Positions 930 to 9,160 of a stretch of DNA of 41,714 bases are shown here, one piece after another. A program made the translations under genes and the position numbers. Position 1 is the first letter of the stretch. Each line of letters starts with the position of its first letter. The notes under the pieces were generated by a model. The model did not search any database and was not told the origin of the DNA. It saw only the letters and a list, made by a program, of their open reading frames with translations. This DNA comes from a plasmid, in NCBI RefSeq assembly GCF_055900595.2, contig NZ_JBVWEU010000004.1. The stretch is one strand, 5' to 3'.

Positions 930-1337
930 GCTGTGTTTCCCATAGTGCTTGCCTAACTTGACCTGTTTCCCACACTCCCGACCGTCCGAGAAGTTGACCT
1001 GTTTCCCATAGTCCGGGCCGTCCGAGAAGCTGACCTGTTTCCCTTAGTCCGGGCCGTCCGCGAAGTTGACCTGTTCCCCACACTCCCGGCCGCCCGCGAA
1101 GTTGACCTGTTTCCCACAGTCCGGGCCGTCTGCAAAGTTGACCTGTTTCCCACAGTCCCGGCCGCCCGCGAAGTTGACCTGTTTCCCATAATCCGGGCCG
1201 TCCGCGAAGTTGACCTGTTCCCCACACTCCCGGCCGCCCGTGAAGTTGACCTGTTTCCCATAGTCCGGGCCGTCCGCGAAGTTGACCTGTTTCCCATAGT
1301 CCGGAGCGTCCATTAAAGTTGACCTGTTTCCCACAGA
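930..1337. repeat. Eleven direct 36-bp iterons (AAGTTGACCTGTTTCCCA core) downstream of rep; incC-like copy-control/incompatibility array
   Basis: Exact 36-bp periodicity (core at 955, 991, 1027 ... 1315), with two alternating unit variants. Confidence 0.85.
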
Positions 1338-1681: not shown

Positions 1682-1719
1682 CATGACACTTTTTGTTCAA
1701 AATGACAAAAAACGTCATG
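1682..1719. promoter_or_regulatory. 38-bp imperfect palindrome just upstream of parA; candidate autoregulatory operator
   Basis: CATGACACTTTTTGTTCAAAATGACAAAAAACGTCATG is close to its own reverse complement and ends 10 bp before the parA ATG. Confidence 0.4.
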
Positions 1720-1728
1720 AGGTGATAA

Positions 1729-2934
1729 ATGGACAATATTGAGCAGTTACGGAAAGTCGCTACACGTGCAGGTAAGCTTCTGACATCTTTGAGCGAAAGT
1801 ATCCGACAGCAAAAAGAGGAATTGAAGCTTACCGAGTTCTATCAGGAATACAGCAAAGCCGCTCTGTATAAGCTGCCTAAGCTCAGTAAAGGCAGTGTTG
1901 AGTATGCTGTGTCCGAAATGGAAGCCGGTGGCTACATTTTTAAAAAGAAACCTTCTGGTAATACGATGAAATACGCGATGACGATTCAGAATGTCATCGA
2001 TCTGTATAACCATCGTAAAGTACCGAAGTACAGGGATCGCTTCGATAAAGCCTTTACGATTTTTGTATGTAATCTTAAAGGTGGTGGTTCCAAGACAGTT
2101 TCTACCGCTTCATTATCACATGCTTTTCGAGCTCATCCTCAGCTTCTGTTCGAAGACCTGCGTATTCTGGCCATCGATTTCGATCCGCAGGCATCTCTGA
2201 CAATGTTCCTGAGCCATGAGAATTCAGTGGGCTTGGTTGAAAATACGGCTGCTCAGGCCATGCTCCAGAACGTGTCTCGTGAAGAATTACTTTCCGATTT
2301 TATAGTACCGTCTATTATCCCTGGTGTTGATGTAATCCCCGCTTCCATTGACGATGCATTCCTTGCTGAAGGCTGGAAGGGATTGTGTGAAGAACATCTG
2401 CCAGGGAAAAATATTCATGCGGTGCTTAAAGAGAACATTATCGACAAGCTCCAGCATGACTACGACTTTATTTTCCTTGATAGTGGTCCTCACCTTGATG
2501 CGTTCCTGAAAAACTGCATTGGGGCGGCAGACCTGATGTTGACCCCTCTTCCACCGGCGACGGTTGATTTTCATTCTTCCCTGAAGTTTGTGGCCAGCCT
2601 CCCTGCCCTCATAGATTCCATCGAAATGGATGGGCACACCTGCAATCTCATCGGTAATGTCGGCTTCATGTCCAAGATCCTGAACAAGTCTGATCACAAA
2701 ATTTGCCATAGTCAGGCCAAAGAGGTTTTCGGTGCCGATATGCTAGACATGGTTCTGCCAAGACTGGATGGTTTCGAACGTTGTGGGGAGACTTTTGACA
2801 CAGTTATTTCAGCAAATCCAGCAACCTATGATGGAAGTACAGAGGCACTAAAAAGCGCAAAATCAGCAGCGGAAGACTTTGCGAAGGCAGTCTTTGATCG
2901 CATCGAGTTCATTCGTACTAACGGAGGTATGTGA
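1729..2934 (+). CDS. parA: Type Ia partition ATPase ParA (P1 ParA / F SopA family)
   Basis: 401 aa; deviant Walker A KGGGSKT; long N-terminal extension typical of type Ia ParA; overlaps parB by 4 bp. Confidence 0.9.
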   Translation: MDNIEQLRKVATRAGKLLTSLSESIRQQKEELKLTEFYQEYSKAALYKLPKLSKGSVEYAVSEMEAGGYIFKKKPSGNTMKYAMTIQNVIDLYNHRKVPKYRDRFDKAFTIFVCNLKGGGSKTVSTASLSHAFRAHPQLLFEDLRILAIDFDPQASLTMFLSHENSVGLVENTAAQAMLQNVSREELLSDFIVPSIIPGVDVIPASIDDAFLAEGWKGLCEEHLPGKNIHAVLKENIIDKLQHDYDFIFLDSGPHLDAFLKNCIGAADLMLTPLPPATVDFHSSLKFVASLPALIDSIEMDGHTCNLIGNVGFMSKILNKSDHKICHSQAKEVFGADMLDMVLPRLDGFERCGETFDTVISANPATYDGSTEALKSAKSAAEDFAKAVFDRIEFIRTNGGM

Positions 2935-3908
2935 TGTCGAATGAGAAAAGAAAAACCATCGGCAGACAGTTAAATACCCAGGCGTCAATTGCGGAAATGA
3001 CGGACACCGGTAGAAGCCAGGTATTTACCTTAAAAACCGGCAGGAAGGTAACGTTCAGGTTTGTTCGGGTGCCTGCATCTGAAGTTGAAAGTAAGACCTT
3101 CGTAAACCAGGAAAACAACGGAAGAGATCAACTTGCACTGACCAGGGAATCCCTGAAATCCATTATCCAGACGATTAAGTTTCAGCAGTTCTTTCCCTGT
3201 ATTGGTATTAAGCAAAGTGAAAGGATTGAGATACTGGATGGTTCAAGACGGCGAGCCTCAGCAATTTTTGTCCGTACAGGCCTTGATGTAATGGTTACCG
3301 AAGAGCATTTATCAGCTGATGAAGCTCGCCAACTGGCTAAAGATATCCAGACAGCTAAAGAACATAATCTTCGGGAGATTGGCCTGAGATTGATCGCTCT
3401 TAAAGAGTCCGGATTTAATCAAAAGGAAATTGCTGAACTGGAGGGGTTATCTCAAGCTAAAGTTACCAGGGCGCTGCAGGCGGCGGCCGTACCGCAAGAC
3501 TTGATTTCTCTGTTCCCGGTTCAGTCGGAGCTATCGTTTAGTGACTATAAACTTCTTTTAGAAGTTAATGAAAAACTCAGTGAAAAGGGATTAACGCCTG
3601 AAGAACTCATTCAGTCTGTATCAGCTCAGCTCGATGCAATTTTGAGTGAAGGCGAGCGACCAGAAGACGAACAGAAAGCCAGTATACTGAAGCTGATTTC
3701 TCAGGCATCTCAGGCATTGATAGATCCATCTCCCAAGGAAAAGTCAGTGGTTTCCCCACTCTGGTCTTTTGAAGAAAAGGACAAGTTCGCGCGTAAGCGT
3801 GTGAAAGGGCGTACGCTGACTTATGAGTTTAGCCGTATGTCAAAAGTGATTCAGGATGAACTGGACAAGGCTATCAACGAGGTCCTTGACAGAAATTTGA
3901 GTCAATAA
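2931..3908 (+). CDS. parB: Partition centromere-binding protein ParB
   Basis: 325 aa; GSRR motif (ILDGSRRRAS) characteristic of ParB/SopB; translationally coupled to parA. Confidence 0.85.
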   Translation: MMSNEKRKTIGRQLNTQASIAEMTDTGRSQVFTLKTGRKVTFRFVRVPASEVESKTFVNQENNGRDQLALTRESLKSIIQTIKFQQFFPCIGIKQSERIEILDGSRRRASAIFVRTGLDVMVTEEHLSADEARQLAKDIQTAKEHNLREIGLRLIALKESGFNQKEIAELEGLSQAKVTRALQAAAVPQDLISLFPVQSELSFSDYKLLLEVNEKLSEKGLTPEELIQSVSAQLDAILSEGERPEDEQKASILKLISQASQALIDPSPKEKSVVSPLWSFEEKDKFARKRVKGRTLTYEFSRMSKVIQDELDKAINEVLDRNLSQ

Positions 3909-3985
3909 TTTCGCCATGGCGATTTCACATCTAACTTATTGTAATTAGGCAGTTTAGGCTGAGAATTTCAAGGTGAAATCGCCAA
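3909..3985. promoter_or_regulatory. parS: P1-type parS centromere (heptamer box A ATTTCAC and hexamer box B TCGCCA in inverted arrangement)
   Basis: TCGCCA at 3912-3917 and ATTTCAC at 3922-3928; GTGAAATCGCCA at 3973-3984; the 11-bp arms GGCGATTTCAC / GTGAAATCGCC flank an AT-rich 44-bp spacer. Matches my recollection of P1 parS. Confidence 0.6.
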
Positions 3986-3989
3986 AGTT

Positions 3990-5261
3990 TTACGCCAGTT
4001 TCGCTGAAGGAATATCTGACCATCGTGTCGTATAAGCAGGAGAAAGCATCTCCCGTTTCATCTGCCATTCCGGGGCAATACCCCGCCCCGCAAACCATAC
4101 TTTACCCAGCCCTGAGTTGTTGATCCCGTCCAGAACCTTCATCAGCTCAGCACTGTAAGGGCGTGGCGGGCGTTCGTCGAACAGCTGCAGCTGCGAAACG
4201 CCGGAGCCGGTGAAGTCATTCAGCATAACTCCGGCTTTGGCATACCGGTGCCCATCCCTCCAGATACGCTCCAGAGCCGTTGTAGCGGCTGCAATGATGT
4301 CCCTGGTGTCCTGAGTGGGTGTAAGAAGTTTTTCCGTAGCCACGTTGCCGTAGTAAGGCTCTTTAATGGCGAACGGAGACGTTTTGATGAAAACGGAAAT
4401 ATGCCGGCAATACTGGTGCTCTTTACGCAGTTTTTCAGAGGCCCGCTCTGCGTGCTGACAGATAGCCTGACGGAGTGACTCGTACTCCGTGATCTTCACG
4501 CCAAAACTGCGGCTGCAGACAATTTGCTGTTTCGTCGGAGGGGCTTCCTCAAGCGAAAGGCAGCTTTCCCCGTTCAGTTCCCGTACCGTTCGCTCAAGGA
4601 CCACAGAAAAATTTTTGCGGATGAAGGCCGGGTTCGTCAGGGCGAGATCGAGCGCGGTCTTAATGCCCAGTACATTCAGCTTGCGTGCAATACGGTTACC
4701 CACCCCCCAGATTTCTTCAACCGGCTGCAGTGAAAGCAGTTTCCGCGTTCTCTGCGGATTTCCCCTGGTCAGAGCAAGTACGCCACGAAACTGTTTCCAC
4801 TCTTTTGAGGCCCACTGGGCTGATTTTGCGAGGGTCTTCGTTGGTCCGGCGCCCACGCCAATGGTCAGGTGGGTACAGTCATACACGTGCTGACGCAGCT
4901 GCCGGCCGAAGTCCTCAAGCTCCATACAGTGCTCCACGCCGGTCAAATCGAGGAACATCTCATCAATTGAATACTGTTCCACTCTGGGGGCCAGTTCCTC
5001 CAGGCTGTTCATCACGCGCGCCAACATCGAGGCATAAAGTTCATAGTTACTTGAAAACGCATATATTTTTTCCGGGTATCTTTCGTTTTTTATCTGAAAC
5101 CACGGAGTTTCCATTTTGATCCAGGGCTTCGCCTCGGCACTGCGAGCGATTACATTCCCGTCGTTGTTGCTCAGGACGACTATCGGCTTTCCTTTCAAAT
5201 CCGGGCGGAAAACACGTTCACAGCTGGCATAGAAGCTGTTCACATCGGCCAGGGCAAACAT
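3990..5261 (-). CDS. umuC: Error-prone translesion polymerase subunit UmuC (Pol V catalytic subunit, Y-family)
   Basis: 423 aa; N-terminus [22 protein letters not shown] is typical of UmuC/MucB; start overlaps the umuD stop. Confidence 0.9.
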
Positions 5262-5739: not shown

Positions 5740-7680
5740 CCGGGAGACCGGTAGAGATCAAGGGGTGAAAGTCCCCGACCATTGAAGGACCAGCAATCCA
5801 CAAGGTCCCCGAGTCATGCGTTGCATACCGCGAGGTATGGGGCGAAGCGTTGACAGGGGTGTTGACAGGCCAGCCATTGAGCCACGAAATGTATATTAAA
5901 TTACCGGGTGCCGACGTTGTACTGTTAACGGAAGGCAACATCATAGGGTGCGATACTGCGAGTGCCACATGGACCCGGCGGGGTCTGAGACCCTGGCATG
6001 TCAATACGATCTCTACGCGGGAACCGGGAGATCTCCCCTCTGACCATCTGCCAGTGTCGGAGACGGCCCGCACCGGGAAGACGAGGAGTCATAGCCGGTG
6101 ATGTACGGAGAGGAGAAGTCGGACTCGCTCATAGTAGCGGCGAAGCAGGCGAACAACCCGAAAGGAGCGGAGTCAGTGGAGCGAAGGAGCGGGGCCAAGG
6201 GGAACGCGGAACAGCCACACATGCGCCGGACACAGAGCCGGGAAAGCATGTCACAGAGGCTGTCACGCGTGCGGGAAGCTGCGAAGCAGCGGAAGAAAGA
6301 ACGGTTTACAGCATTGTTCCACCTGCTGACAGTCGAAGCACTGGAAGCCGCATTCCTCTCCCTGAGCAGGAAAGCGGCCGCCGGAGTGGATGGCATCAGG
6401 TGGATGGACTACGCCGGAAACATGAAGAACAACATAACAGATCTGCACCGGAGGCTACATTAGGGCAGCTACAGGGCGCAGCCCGGCAGGCGTCACTACA
6501 TCCCAAAAGCGGATGGAAAACAACGCCCGCTCGGCATCGCCTCGCTGGAGGACAAGATCGTCCAGTATGCGCTGGTGAAAATCCTGAACGCAGTCTATGA
6601 AAACGACTTTATGGGGTTCTCATACGGGTTCAGACCCGGGCGAAGCCAGCACGATGCACTGGACGCACTGGCCACAGGGCTGGTACGCACTAACGTAAAC
6701 TGGGTACTGGATGCCGACATCAGTCAGTTCTTCGACAGGGTGAGCCACGAATGGCTGATCAGGTTCACAGAGCATCGGATCGGCGACCGGAGCGTAATCA
6801 GGCTCATACGTAAGTGGCTCACAGCCGGGACGTTGGAGGAGGGTCAATGGCGAGCAACGGAGGAAGGCACCCCACAGGGTGCGGTCATCTCACCGCTGCT
6901 GGCAAACATATACCTCCACTACGTCTTCGATCTGTGGGCGCATCAGTGGCGACGTCGCTATGCCACAGGCAATGTGGTAATGGTCAGATACGCCGATGAC
7001 ATCGTCATCGGGTTCGACAAACGATACGATGCCCGGCGCTTCCGTATAGCCATGCAGCGCAGACTGAGGGAGTTCGGACTCACGGTTCACCCGGAGAAAA
7101 CCCGTCTGATGGAGTTCGGCCGCTTCGCTGCCGAAAACCGTGCCATCAGGGGAAAAGGCAAACCAGAAACGTTCAACTTCCTCGGGTTCACGCACATCAG
7201 CGGGAAAGATCGCAACGGCAGGTTCATGCTGATACGAAAGACCCGCCGGGATCGGATGACGGCAACTCTGAAAGCCATCAAAGACGGTCTGCGAAGGCGC
7301 TGGCATTACTCAATCCCCGAACAGGGAAAATGGCTCAGGAGAGTGGTTCAGGGATACCTGAACTATCACTCGGTACCGGGCAACTTCCCCACCATGCAGA
7401 AGTTCAGGACACACGTAACAAACCTCTGGCGCCGGGCGCTCAGGCGCAGGAGCCAGAAGGATGATACGACCTGGACGAAAGCAAACAAACTGGCAGCCGC
7501 ATGGCTACCAAGGGTTCGGGTTCTTCATCCATGGCCTGTGGAGCGGTTCACCGCCAGACACCCGAGGCAGGAGCCCGGTGCGTAAATCGCGCACGCCGGG
7601 ATCTGTGCGGGGGGTATCCGGTAACGGGTATCCCTACCGCGACATATTTAACAGCGTGACGATAATCCAGATCGCCTGCC
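5740..7680 (+). mobile_element. Group II intron remnant (maturase-encoding; 5' RNA domains probably truncated, 3' end abuts IS1)
   Basis: Reverse transcriptase/maturase ORF with structured GC-rich RNA-like sequence on both sides; only about 360 nt lie between the LexA box and the ORF start, less than a typical domain I-III. Confidence 0.6.
6098..7588 (+). pseudogene. Group II intron reverse transcriptase/maturase interrupted by an in-frame TAG at 6464-6466
   Basis: ORFs 6098-6463 and 6575-7585 are in the same frame; translation across the gap reads ...[38 protein letters not shown]..., i.e. one stop codon inside a contiguous RT domain; YADD motif present downstream. Confidence 0.75.
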
Positions 7681-8799: not shown

Positions 8800-9160
8800 A
8801 AGATGGGCGGATTTCCACACAGCACCGGCGCCCGGTAAGGTGGGCGGATTCCCACACGGCACCGGCGCCCGGCAAGATGGGCGGATTTCCACACAGCACC
8901 GGCGCCCGGTAAGGTGGGCGGATTTCCACACAGCACCGGCGCCCGGCAAGGTGGGCGGATTCCCACACGGCACCGGCGCCCGGCAAGATGGGCGGATTTC
9001 CACACAGCACCGGCGCCCGGTAAGGTGGGCGGATTTCCACACAGCACCGGCGCCCGGCAAGGTGGGCGGATTCCCACACGGCACCGGCGCGCGGCAAGGT
9101 GGGCGGATTTCCACACGGCACCGGCGCCCGGCAAGGTGGGCCGATTCCCATATCGACATG
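8800..9160. repeat. About ten direct 37-bp iterons (GGGCGGATTTCCACACAGCACCGGCGCCCGG) of the disrupted second replicon
   Basis: Exact 37-bp periodicity from about 8801 to 9134, immediately downstream of the rep fragment. Confidence 0.8.

What the first reader, a model, noticed from the sequence alone, without database searches (positions are those of the whole stretch)
3909..3985. Centromere looks P1-type (parS) rather than F sopC-type
The ParB heptamer (ATTTCAC) and hexamer (TCGCCA) boxes occur in inverted pairs around an AT-rich spacer just downstream of parB, between convergent parB and umuC. There is no array of 43-bp sopC-like repeats. The partition system of this F-like plasmid therefore appears to be of the P1 ParAB-parS class.
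Basis: partly seen in the sequence, partly recalled or inferred. Interest (0 to 1): 0.45.

Follow-up and report, generated by a model that had tools for sequence, protein, structure and literature searches.

The report
P1-type plasmid centromere (parS)
The 80-bp gap after parB holds a textbook P1-family plasmid centromere, so this IncR resistance plasmid segregates with a P1-like ParA/ParB/parS system rather than an F-like one. This is a correct but ordinary annotation.

Summary
Window 3911-3984 carries BoxB TCGCCA (3911-3916), BoxA ATTTCAC (3922-3928), an IHF-type core (3932-3944), BoxA ATTTCAA (3965-3971), inverted BoxA (3973-3979) and BoxB (3979-3984). The spacings are exactly those annotated for phage P1 parS. 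A run of 21 consecutive bases is identical to P1's A2-A3-B2 core. The site starts 3 nt after parB.

ParA is 69% and ParB 54% identical to the P1 proteins, against 25% and 31% to F SopA and SopB. No 43-bp sopC-like array or SopB-binding motif exists in the window. The two 36/37-bp arrays are replication iterons.

Across 29 species, the left-arm boxes and the IHF core are conserved at fixed spacing while the spacer drifts.

One correction: the plasmid is IncR (near-identical to K. pneumoniae pKPS30), not F-like, and its initiator is RepE-family.

The same module (ParB 90% identical, same boxes, convergent samB/umuC) sits on Salmonella pSLT, where P1 GFP-ParB forms pSLT-dependent foci. BoxB2 and the ParB Asp equivalent to P1 D288 predict P1 species specificity.

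The only unusual feature is an extra inverted BoxB abutting A1. This is a known kind of system and of low interest.

The parts
1682..1719 (.). Candidate par operator: an imperfect inverted repeat (CATGACACTTTTTGT / ACAAAAAACGTCATG) just upstream of the parA start
   Evidence: One search reports arms 1682-1696 and 1705-1719, 87% complementary. One search shows partial alignment with the annotated P1 Ppar/ParA operator and near-identity with pSLT. Function is inferred, not shown.
1729..2934 (+). parA: a type Ia partition ATPase with an N-terminal HTH domain
   Evidence: 69% identical to P1 ParA over 398 aa. Pfam HTH_54 (ParA HTH) plus AAA_31. Only 25% identical to F SopA. The NCBIfam SopA equivalog scores 64 bits against a cut-off of 725.
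2934..3908 (+). parB: a P1-family centromere-binding protein
   Evidence: 54% identical to P1 ParB over the full length. Pfam PF08775, E 1e-50. The best PDB relatives are P1 ParB 1ZX4 and 2NTZ. Asp283 aligns with P1 Asp288. Only 31% identical over 190 aa to F SopB.
3911..3993 (+). Whole parS centromere: left arm, IHF region and right arm, including the degenerate A4
   Evidence: Gap-free alignment with annotated P1 parS shows all boxes in register. blastn hits P1 incB/parS.
3911..3916 (+). BoxB1 (TCGCCA)
   Evidence: It starts 11 nt before A1 and 68 nt before B2, exactly as in P1. This column block carries 1.34 bits per column across 29 species.
3917..3922 (-). Extra inverted BoxB (B1', TCGCCA on the minus strand). 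It abuts A1 and forms the palindrome TCGCCATGGCGA
   Evidence: Absent from P1. It matches 5 of 6 in pSLT and Enterobacter. It is perfect in 6 of 29 species-level sites.
3922..3928 (+). BoxA1 (ATTTCAC)
   Evidence: It starts 43 nt before A2, as in P1. 1.26 bits per column across 29 species.
3932..3944 (.). IHF-site equivalent (TAACTTATTGTAA)
   Evidence: It aligns column for column with the IHF site annotated in P1 (L002 4024-4036). The TAACT..TGT core is invariant in the 5-sequence alignment. 1.07 bits per column across 29 species, against 0.51 in the spacer. IHF binding itself was not tested.
3965..3971 (+). BoxA2 (ATTTCAA)
   Evidence: Identical to P1 A2.
3973..3979 (-). BoxA3 (ATTTCAC on the minus strand)
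   Evidence: Identical to P1 A3.
3979..3984 (+). BoxB2 (TCGCCA), the species-specificity box
   Evidence: Identical to P1 B2. Its role in specificity is taken from PMC10999674.
3987..3993 (+). Degenerate BoxA4 (GTTTTAC, 5 of 7) overlapping the umuC stop codon
   Evidence: It sits at the position of P1 A4. pSLT and Enterobacter have ATTTCAA here. The column block is weakly conserved, 0.48 bits.

Best explanation
Window 3911-3984(-3993) is the cis-acting centromere (parS) of a P1-family type Ia partition system. That system is encoded by parA (1729-2934) and parB (2934-3908) immediately upstream.

**Shown here**
- The site has the P1 box set (B1-A1, IHF core, A2-A3-B2) at identical spacing.
- Its A2-A3-B2 core is 100% identical to P1 over 21 bases.
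- The Par proteins are full-length P1 orthologues.
- The left-arm boxes and IHF core are conserved across species while the spacer drifts.

**Inferred from the P1 paradigm**
- ParB dimers read the BoxA heptamers with their HTH domains and the BoxB hexamers with their C-terminal dimer domain.
- IHF bends the AT-rich centre so that one ParB assembly bridges both arms into a high-affinity wrapped complex.
- ParB then loads or spreads and stimulates nucleoid-bound ParA-ATP, which positions sister plasmids apart.
- ParA also autoregulates the operon, probably through the inverted repeat at 1682-1719.

**Prediction**
BoxB2 (TCGCCA) and the ParB Asp aligned with P1 D288 are the same as in P1. The site is therefore predicted to belong to the P1 specificity species, meaning it would be bound by P1 ParB and would exert incB-type partition incompatibility.
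For: **Architecture and register**
- The start-to-start spacings B1->A1 11 nt, A1->A2 43 nt and B1->B2 68 nt equal those of the annotated P1 parS.
- A run of 21 consecutive bases, AATTTCAAGGTGAAATCGCCA, is identical to P1.
- According to PMC10999674, A2-A3-B2 (parS-small) suffices for ParB binding.
- The site starts 3 nt after the parB stop.

**Non-randomness**
- Composite motifs have expectations of 0.01-0.02.

**Proteins**
- ParA is 69% and ParB 54% identical to P1.
- ParB matches PF08775 and ParA matches HTH_54.
- The best solved relatives are P1 ParB 1ZX4 and 2NTZ.

**Conservation within the clade**
- In plasmids whose ParB is 90-100% identical (pSLT, Kp IncFIA, Enterobacter), most substitutions fall in the spacer between the IHF core and A2.

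**Conservation across the family**
- 29 sites from different species were selected only by the right arm plus an upstream ParB homologue.
- In these, the unselected left arm carries B1 at 1.34 bits per column, A1 at 1.26 and the IHF core at 1.07. The spacer carries 0.51 and the flank 0.38.

**Specificity**
- Asp at the P1-288 position co-occurs with TCGCCA-type B2 in 8 lineages.
- pMT1 has Asn with TCACCA. The IncY/P7-like plasmid has Arg with TTCCCA. Kp IncFIB(K) has Lys with TTCCCT.

**In vivo support from the literature**
- P1 GFP-delta30ParB (pALA2705) forms foci in S. Typhimurium LT2 without an engineered parS. The foci disappear when pSLT is cured (PMC4697819; identity of pALA2705 from PMC3098194).
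- pSLT parS has the same B1, A1, IHF core, A2, A3 and B2 as the window.

**Prevalence**
- The module occurs in more than 4,300 PLSDB plasmids.
Against: - No binding, stability or incompatibility experiment exists for this plasmid, so everything functional is by homology.
- A4 is degenerate (5 of 7) and overlaps the umuC stop.
- ParB is only 54% identical to P1 ParB. According to the literature summarised, other ParB regions also contribute to specificity, so cross-reaction with P1 is a prediction.
- The Enterobacter relative has B2 = TCTCCA with the same Asp, so the residue/box rule is not strict.
- The pSLT foci were attributed to parS by the authors but were not mapped.
- The window also carries a StbA-type stability locus, so parS need not be the only stability determinant.
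Confidence: 0.9

Rival explanations
1. The site has the P1 architecture but defines its own specificity species. It is read only by its own ParB, and there is no cross-binding or incompatibility with P1.
For: - ParB is only 54% identical to P1 ParB.
- Specificity in the family can switch with single changes, and several ParB regions are involved (literature summarised in PMC10999674).
- The extra B1' box and the degenerate A4 differ from P1.
Against: - BoxB2, stated to be the only B box needed for P1-specific incompatibility, is identical to P1, as are A2 and A3.
- The Asp equivalent to P1 D288 is conserved.
- P1 GFP-ParB forms pSLT-dependent foci, and pSLT has the same boxes.
Confidence: 0.3
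2. The inverted repeat acts mainly as an RNA or DNA hairpin between the convergent parB and umuC genes, serving as a bidirectional terminator or transcript stabiliser, rather than as a protein-binding centromere.
For: - It lies between convergent genes with no other terminator-like site in the 81-nt gap.
- Both transcripts can form a 12-bp stem, with MFE -22.4 and -22.3 kcal/mol and z-scores -2.6 and -3.6.
Against: - The stem encloses a 44-nt loop and is not followed by a T-run. The terminator scan finds nothing in the gap.
- P1 and most family members lack the B1' half that makes the stem, yet keep B1 and A1 at fixed spacing.
- Changes in pSLT (TGGCGA to CGGCGA) and in Enterobacter (A1 C to T; B2 G to T) are not compensated in the partner arm.
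Confidence: 0.04
3. The real centromere is one of the repeat arrays elsewhere in the window (a sopC-like array), and 3911-3984 is a relic.
For: - Arrays of 36 bp x 10.5 copies (958-1336) and 37 bp x 9.5 copies (8800-9150) exist.
- An 11-bp repeat cluster lies upstream of stbA.
Against: - The 36-bp array directly follows repB. The 37-bp array follows a rep gene in other plasmids and is cut off by IS1 here.
- The unit cores of the two arrays are related to each other, as expected of iterons.
- There is no SopB-type inverted repeat even at 3 mismatches, and no 43-bp period. No SopA or SopB equivalog is present.
- The 11-bp repeats belong to a separate StbA system.
- parA and parB are intact, and parS is under purifying selection.
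Confidence: 0.03

Closest known systems
Phage/plasmid P1 parS (incB) with ParA-ParB, the P1par family prototype
   Same: - The operon order is parA-parB-parS.
- Boxes B1, A1, IHF site, A2, A3 and B2 have identical spacing.
- A run of 21 consecutive bases covering A2-A3-B2 is identical.
- BoxB is TCGCCA, and the ParB Asp at the 288 position is conserved.
- ParA has the N-terminal HTH domain.
   Different: - There is an extra inverted BoxB (B1') abutting A1.
- A4 is degenerate.
- The spacer sequence is unrelated.
- ParB is only 54% identical.
- The linked replicon is RepE/Rep_3-type with 36-bp iterons, not P1 RepA (no similarity).
- The downstream neighbour is a convergent umuC rather than a phage gene.
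Salmonella Typhimurium virulence plasmid pSLT par region (parVP; Cerin & Hackett 1993, cited)
   Same: - ParB is 90% identical.
- B1, A1, IHF core, A2, A3 and B2 are identical.
- The convergent umuC homologue samB is at the same distance.
- pSLT-dependent foci of P1 GFP-ParB have been reported.
   Different: - pSLT is IncFIB/IncFII and conjugative, whereas the window is IncR.
- pSLT has CGGCGA instead of TGGCGA at B1'.
- pSLT has a good A4 (ATTTCAA).
- There are 8 substitutions in the spacer.
Other P1par family members: P7-like IncY plasmids, Yersinia pestis pMT1, Shigella pINV/pWR100
   Same: The parA-parB-parS layout and the BoxA/BoxB logic are shared. pMT1 and the IncY plasmid share the same 68-nt B1-B2 frame.
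   Different: - Their BoxB2 sequences and residues at the 288 position differ. The IncY/P7-like plasmid has TTCCCA with Arg, and pMT1 has TCACCA with Asn.
- The pINV site has a different left arm and B2 TCGCCT in the record examined.
- ParB identity to the window is only 43-53%.
F plasmid SopA-SopB-sopC
   Same: Both are type Ia partition systems. They share a large ParA with autoregulation, a ParB-fold protein, and a centromere placed directly downstream of the B gene. The neighbouring initiator is RepE-family in both (32% identity).
   Different: - sopC is 43 bp x 10.7 tandem units, each carrying TGGGACCNNGGTCCCA, and none is present in the window.
- SopA and SopB are only 25% and 31% identical to the window proteins.

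Membership tests
P1par family centromere (parS) | Site lies immediately downstream of parB in a parA-parB-parS operon | tested here: met
   B1 starts 3 nt after the parB stop codon. The order matches annotated P1.
P1par family centromere (parS) | BoxA heptamers (ATTTCAC/A): A1 on the left, and A2 plus inverted A3 on the right, at P1 spacing | tested here: met
   A1 is at 3922-3928, A2 at 3965-3971 and A3 at 3973-3979. The A1->A2 distance is 43 nt, as in P1. A4 matches only 5 of 7.
P1par family centromere (parS) | Two BoxB hexamers (B1 left, B2 right, with B2 overlapping A3 by 1 nt) | tested here: met
   TCGCCA is at 3911-3916 and 3979-3984. The B1->B2 distance is 68 nt, as in P1.
P1par family centromere (parS) | Central IHF-binding site between the arms | tested here: inconclusive
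   3932-3944 aligns with the annotated P1 IHF site. Its TAACT..TG core is conserved across the family. IHF binding itself cannot be tested with these tools.
P1par family centromere (parS) | Cognate type Ia ParA (N-terminal HTH) and ParB with the P1-type HTH plus dimer/BoxB-binding C-terminal domain | tested here: met
   Pfam HTH_54 and AAA_31 in ParA, and PF08775 in ParB. Identity to P1 is 69% and 54%. The best PDB hits are 1ZX4 and 2NTZ.
P1par family centromere (parS) | ParB binds the site, and the site confers par-dependent stability and incompatibility | not testable with these tools
   Only indirect evidence exists: P1 GFP-ParB foci depend on pSLT, which carries the same boxes.
P1 specificity species within the P1par family | BoxB2 = TCGCCA, and ParB has Asp at the position of P1 residue 288 | tested here: met
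   B2 is identical to P1. Asp283 aligns with P1 Asp288. The rule is taken from PMC10999674.
F SopABC / sopC centromere | Tandem array of about 43-bp units, each with the SopB-binding inverted repeat TGGGACCNNGGTCCCA | tested here: not met
   The positive control in F gives 43 bp x 10.7 copies. The window has no 43-bp array and no motif match at up to 3 mismatches.
F SopABC / sopC centromere | SopA and SopB orthologues | tested here: not met
   The NCBIfam SopA equivalog scores 64 bits against a cut-off of 725. PRK13698 scores 68 bits against 274. BLASTP identity is 25% and 31%.
F-like (IncF) plasmid | IncF replicon typing and an F-type transfer region | tested here: not met
   The near-identical record pKPS30 is typed IncR and mobilizable. 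No tra genes are annotated in the 41.7 kb. The initiator is only 32% identical to F RepE. The same par module does occur on IncF plasmids such as pSLT.
Iteron arrays (for the 36/37-bp repeats) | Direct repeats adjacent to a Rep_3 initiator gene | tested here: met
   The 958-1336 array follows repB. The flank of the 8800-9150 array matches the 3' end of rep genes in other plasmids.

The most novel reading that the evidence does not exclude
The IncR/pSLT-type parS belongs to the same specificity species as P1. If so, the thousands of Klebsiella, Salmonella and Enterobacter plasmids carrying this module would be partition-incompatible with P1-like phage-plasmids, and probably with Shigella pINV.

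In addition, the left arm of this sub-family carries a second, inverted copy of the A3-B2 module (the B1' box). That would make a quasi-symmetric centromere able to bind ParB on each arm independently, and it may be less dependent on IHF than P1 parS.
Probability: 0.4. Interest if true: 0.35.

Novelty: new member of a known kind. Interest (0 to 1): 0.15.

Why it matters
Practically, this fixes the annotation. IncR resistance plasmids, and the many Klebsiella and Salmonella plasmids that share the module, use a P1-family centromere. This contradicts the statement in a recent IncR review that most IncR plasmids lack par modules.

It also gives a concrete, cheap prediction: cross-binding by P1 ParB and incB-type incompatibility with P1-like phage-plasmids and pSLT.

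Finally, it warns that P1 ParB/parS fluorescent tagging will give background foci in strains carrying such plasmids, as was already seen with pSLT.

It does not open a new mechanism.

Tried and rejected
- **Primary P1par papers.** I tried to read PMC2632008, PMC1196149 and PMC1112009, but none is held. The specificity rules therefore rest on the summary in PMC10999674 and on my own recollection.
- **sopC-like centromere elsewhere.** Rejected. There is no 43-bp period and no SopB motif. The 36/37-bp arrays are iterons.
- **Hairpin or terminator reading of the inverted repeat.** Rejected. There is no terminator-like site in the gap. The stem has a 44-nt loop. Substitutions are not compensatory.
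- **P1-like replicon alongside the P1-like par.** Rejected. RepB has no similarity to P1 RepA and is RepE-family.
- **Pattern-only genome scan.** This also returned about a dozen hits in a conserved coding context in unrelated bacteria, plus scattered chance hits. Only sites with an upstream ParB homologue were used for the conservation statistics.
- **Anchor failures.** The TGAAAT anchor mis-registered the Cronobacter site, and gave no usable site for Providencia or Vibrio.

Full report
**What is in the sequence**

The 81-nt gap between parB (2934-3908, +) and the convergent umuC (3990-5261, -) reads:

TTTCGCCATGGCGATTTCACATCTAACTTATTGTAATTAGGCAGTTTAGGCTGAGAATTTCAAGGTGAAATCGCCAAAGTTTTAC

It contains the following elements:

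| Element | Coordinates | Strand | Sequence |
|---|---|---|---|
| BoxB | 3911-3916 | + | TCGCCA |
| BoxB (inverted) | 3917-3922 | - | TCGCCA |
| BoxA | 3922-3928 | + | ATTTCAC |
| BoxA | 3965-3971 | + | ATTTCAA |
| BoxA (inverted) | 3973-3979 | - | ATTTCAC |
| BoxB | 3979-3984 | + | TCGCCA |

The single motifs are frequent in the window. ATTTCAC has 11 hits against 5.6 expected, and TCGCCA has 46 against 30. The composites are effectively unique:
- TCGCCA-N4-6-ATTTCAC has 1 hit against 0.02 expected.
- The 20-mer right arm matches exactly, against 0.01 expected.
- The 12-mer GTGAAATCGCCA occurs twice in inverted orientation, with 0 of 100 shuffles reaching two hits.

The centre is 35% GC, against 45-60% in the flanks.

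**Comparison with P1**

A blastn search of the 121-nt fragment against 50,697 phage records returned P1, exactly over its annotated 'incB / centromere-like' parS. P1's record annotates B1, A1, an IHF site, A2, A3, B2 and A4. A gap-free alignment puts every window box in the same column as the corresponding P1 box.

| Interval (start to start) | Window | P1 |
|---|---|---|
| B1 -> A1 | 11 nt | 11 nt |
| A1 -> A2 | 43 nt | 43 nt |
| B1 -> B2 | 68 nt | 68 nt |

A run of 21 consecutive bases, AATTTCAAGGTGAAATCGCCA (A2-A3-B2), is identical to P1. The core of the IHF site (TAACT.A.TGT) is also conserved.

According to PMC10999674, A2-A3-B2 ('parS-small') is all that ParB binding requires, and B2 is the only B box needed for P1-specific incompatibility.

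There are two differences from P1. A4 is degenerate (GTTTTAC) and overlaps the umuC stop. An extra inverted BoxB (B1') abuts A1, giving the palindrome TCGCCATGGCGA.

**The proteins**

| Window protein | vs P1 | vs F |
|---|---|---|
| ParA | 69% identical, 600 bits | 25% identical to SopA, 72 bits |
| ParB | 54% identical over the full length, 342 bits | 31% identical to SopB over 190 aa, 60 bits |

- ParA has the Pfam 'ParA HTH' domain typical of type Ia autoregulatory ParAs. ParB matches PF08775 at E 1e-50.
- The closest solved structures are the P1 ParB entries 1ZX4 and 2NTZ.
- The NCBIfam SopA and SopB-type equivalogs score far below their cut-offs.
- An inverted repeat at 1682-1719, just upstream of parA, is a plausible ParA operator. 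It is nearly identical in pSLT and partly alignable with P1's annotated operator.

**Not sopC**

As a positive control, Tandem Repeats Finder recovers sopC in F as 43 bp x 10.7 copies. The window has no 43-bp array. It also has no match to the SopB-binding repeat TGGGACCNNGGTCCCA, even with 3 mismatches.

Both are iterons:
- The 36 bp x 10.5 array at 958-1336 starts about 90 nt after the repB stop codon.
- The 37 bp x 9.5 array at 8800-9150 has an upstream flank that corresponds to the 3' end of a 'replication initiation protein' gene in other plasmids. In the window that gene is cut by IS1.

The unit cores of the two arrays are related to each other.

**What the plasmid is**

The window is near-identical to K. 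pneumoniae pKPS30 (NC_023314.1), which is typed IncR and mobilizable, with no transfer genes annotated in this stretch. The initiator is Rep_3/RepE-family. It is 32% identical to F RepE and has no similarity to P1 RepA. 'F-like plasmid' is therefore wrong. The replicon is a mosaic of a RepE-family iteron replicon and a P1-family par module.

**Evolutionary evidence for function**

ParB homologues occur in 4,545 PLSDB plasmids. The parA-umuC stretch occurs in 4,320, mostly from Klebsiella, Salmonella and Enterobacter.

Within the close clade (ParB 90-100% identical: Kp IncFIA, Enterobacter, pSLT), the boxes and IHF core are kept. Most substitutions fall in the spacer between the IHF core and A2.

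A scan of one genome per species for the right-arm pattern gave 84 matches. Of these, 30 have a ParB homologue ending less than 400 nt upstream.

I then examined the 29 such sites that had full 90-nt context. The left arm played no part in selecting them. Information content per column was:

| Region | Bits per column |
|---|---|
| B1 | 1.34 |
| A1 | 1.26 |
| IHF core | 1.07 |
| Spacer | 0.51 |
| Flank | 0.38 |

This is the signature of a protein-binding site with fixed geometry.

**Specificity**

In a ParB alignment, the residue aligned with P1 Asp288 tracks the BoxB2 sequence:

| Lineage(s) | Residue at P1-288 position | BoxB2 |
|---|---|---|
| Window and the other 7 lineages of this group | Asp | TCGCCA-type |
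| pMT1 | Asn | TCACCA |
| IncY / P7-like plasmid | Arg | TTCCCA |
| Klebsiella IncFIB(K) plasmid | Lys | TTCCCT |

This fits the published rule that this residue reads BoxB2. One Enterobacter relative has Asp with TCTCCA, so the rule is not absolute.

Salmonella pSLT carries the same module. Its ParB is 90% identical, its B1, A1, IHF core, A2, A3 and B2 are identical, and samB converges at the same distance. Cenens et al. reported that P1 GFP-ParB from pALA2705 forms discrete foci in LT2 without an engineered P1 parS, and that curing pSLT abolishes them (PMC4697819). pALA2705 encodes the GFP-delta30ParB used with the P1 parS site (PMC3098194).

I therefore predict, but cannot show, that the window's parS is bound by P1 ParB and is incB-incompatible with P1.

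That would be the direct precedent.

**Rivals**

- *Hairpin or terminator role.* This is unlikely. No terminator-like site lies in the gap. The possible 12-bp stem encloses a 44-nt loop. The changes seen in pSLT and Enterobacter are not compensated in the other arm. Most family members lack the B1' half altogether.
- *Relic site with stability supplied elsewhere.* This is contradicted by the intact parAB genes and by the conservation pattern. The window does, however, carry a separate StbA-type locus.

**Verdict**

It is an ordinary member of a well-studied family. A 90%-identical module (pSLT parVP) was characterised decades ago (reference).

The only mildly new points are the B1' box and the specificity prediction. 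B1' is perfect in 6 of 29 species-level sites, including a Vibrionaceae genome. The recent IncR review states both that IncR plasmids commonly carry parAB and that most lack par modules, and the data here support the former statement.

Noticed in passing
window 3911-3928: The left arm carries an extra inverted BoxB (B1', 3917-3922) directly abutting A1. As a result, the A3-B2 12-mer GTGAAATCGCCA is present twice in inverted orientation. P1 lacks this box. It is perfect in Cedecea, two Buttiauxella, Kluyvera, Raoultella and Veronia sites, and matches 5 of 6 in pSLT.
   Followed up: partly
window 958-1336: A 36-bp x 10.5 direct-repeat array starts about 90 nt after the repB stop codon. It is an iteron or copy-control array in the position of P1 incA or F incC. 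The hypothetical ORF annotated inside it on the minus strand (1044-1313 in pKPS30) is probably spurious.
   Followed up: partly
window 8800-9150: A 37-bp x 9.5 array (with a higher-order ~111-bp periodicity) lies between IS1 and IS5. In other plasmids its upstream flank is the 3' end of a replication initiator gene, so this is a remnant of a second, IncN-like iteron replicon. Its unit core resembles the IncR iterons.
   Followed up: partly
window 10782-11377: stbA (10782-11168, minus strand; NCBIfam StbA_2 equivalog at 204 bits) is preceded by two clusters of 11-bp-period repeats (TTGTAGTTTAT; 11228-11320 and 11348-11377). They resemble the R388 stbDR sites bound by StbA. This is a second, ParA-less stability or positioning locus.
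   Followed up: partly
window 1682-1719: An inverted repeat lies just upstream of parA and is a likely ParA operator. It is nearly identical in pSLT and partly alignable with P1's annotated Ppar operator.
   Followed up: partly
window 6098-7585: A group II intron reverse transcriptase/maturase (ltrA/retA) lies next to umuDC, as is typical of the IncR backbone.
   Followed up: no
L037/L038 (Photobacterium rosenbergii), L044 (Ca. Pantoea deserta), L050 and L071 (Xenorhabdus), L047 (Cedecea): Several genomes carry multiple P1-type parS copies. One Photobacterium contig has four. Ca. Pantoea deserta has three tandem sites about 165 bp apart. Xenorhabdus has two sites in opposite orientation about 2.4 kb apart, apparently flanking parAB. 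Such multi-site P1-type centromeres differ from the single-site P1 paradigm.
   Followed up: no
L019, L021, L023, L027, L039, L043, L045, L046, L062, L063, L074: The 18-nt right-arm pattern also occurs inside a conserved, apparently protein-coding context (...GGCATTAAAAAAATA.GGGCT...GATTTCAG.GTGAAATCGCCAAA) in unrelated bacteria. These are false positives for pattern-only parS detection.
   Followed up: no
window vs NC_023314.1: The window is not byte-identical to pKPS30. There is a 1-nt offset between repB and parA, and a 112-nt offset by stbA. Several other IncR plasmids match the par region at 100%.
   Followed up: no
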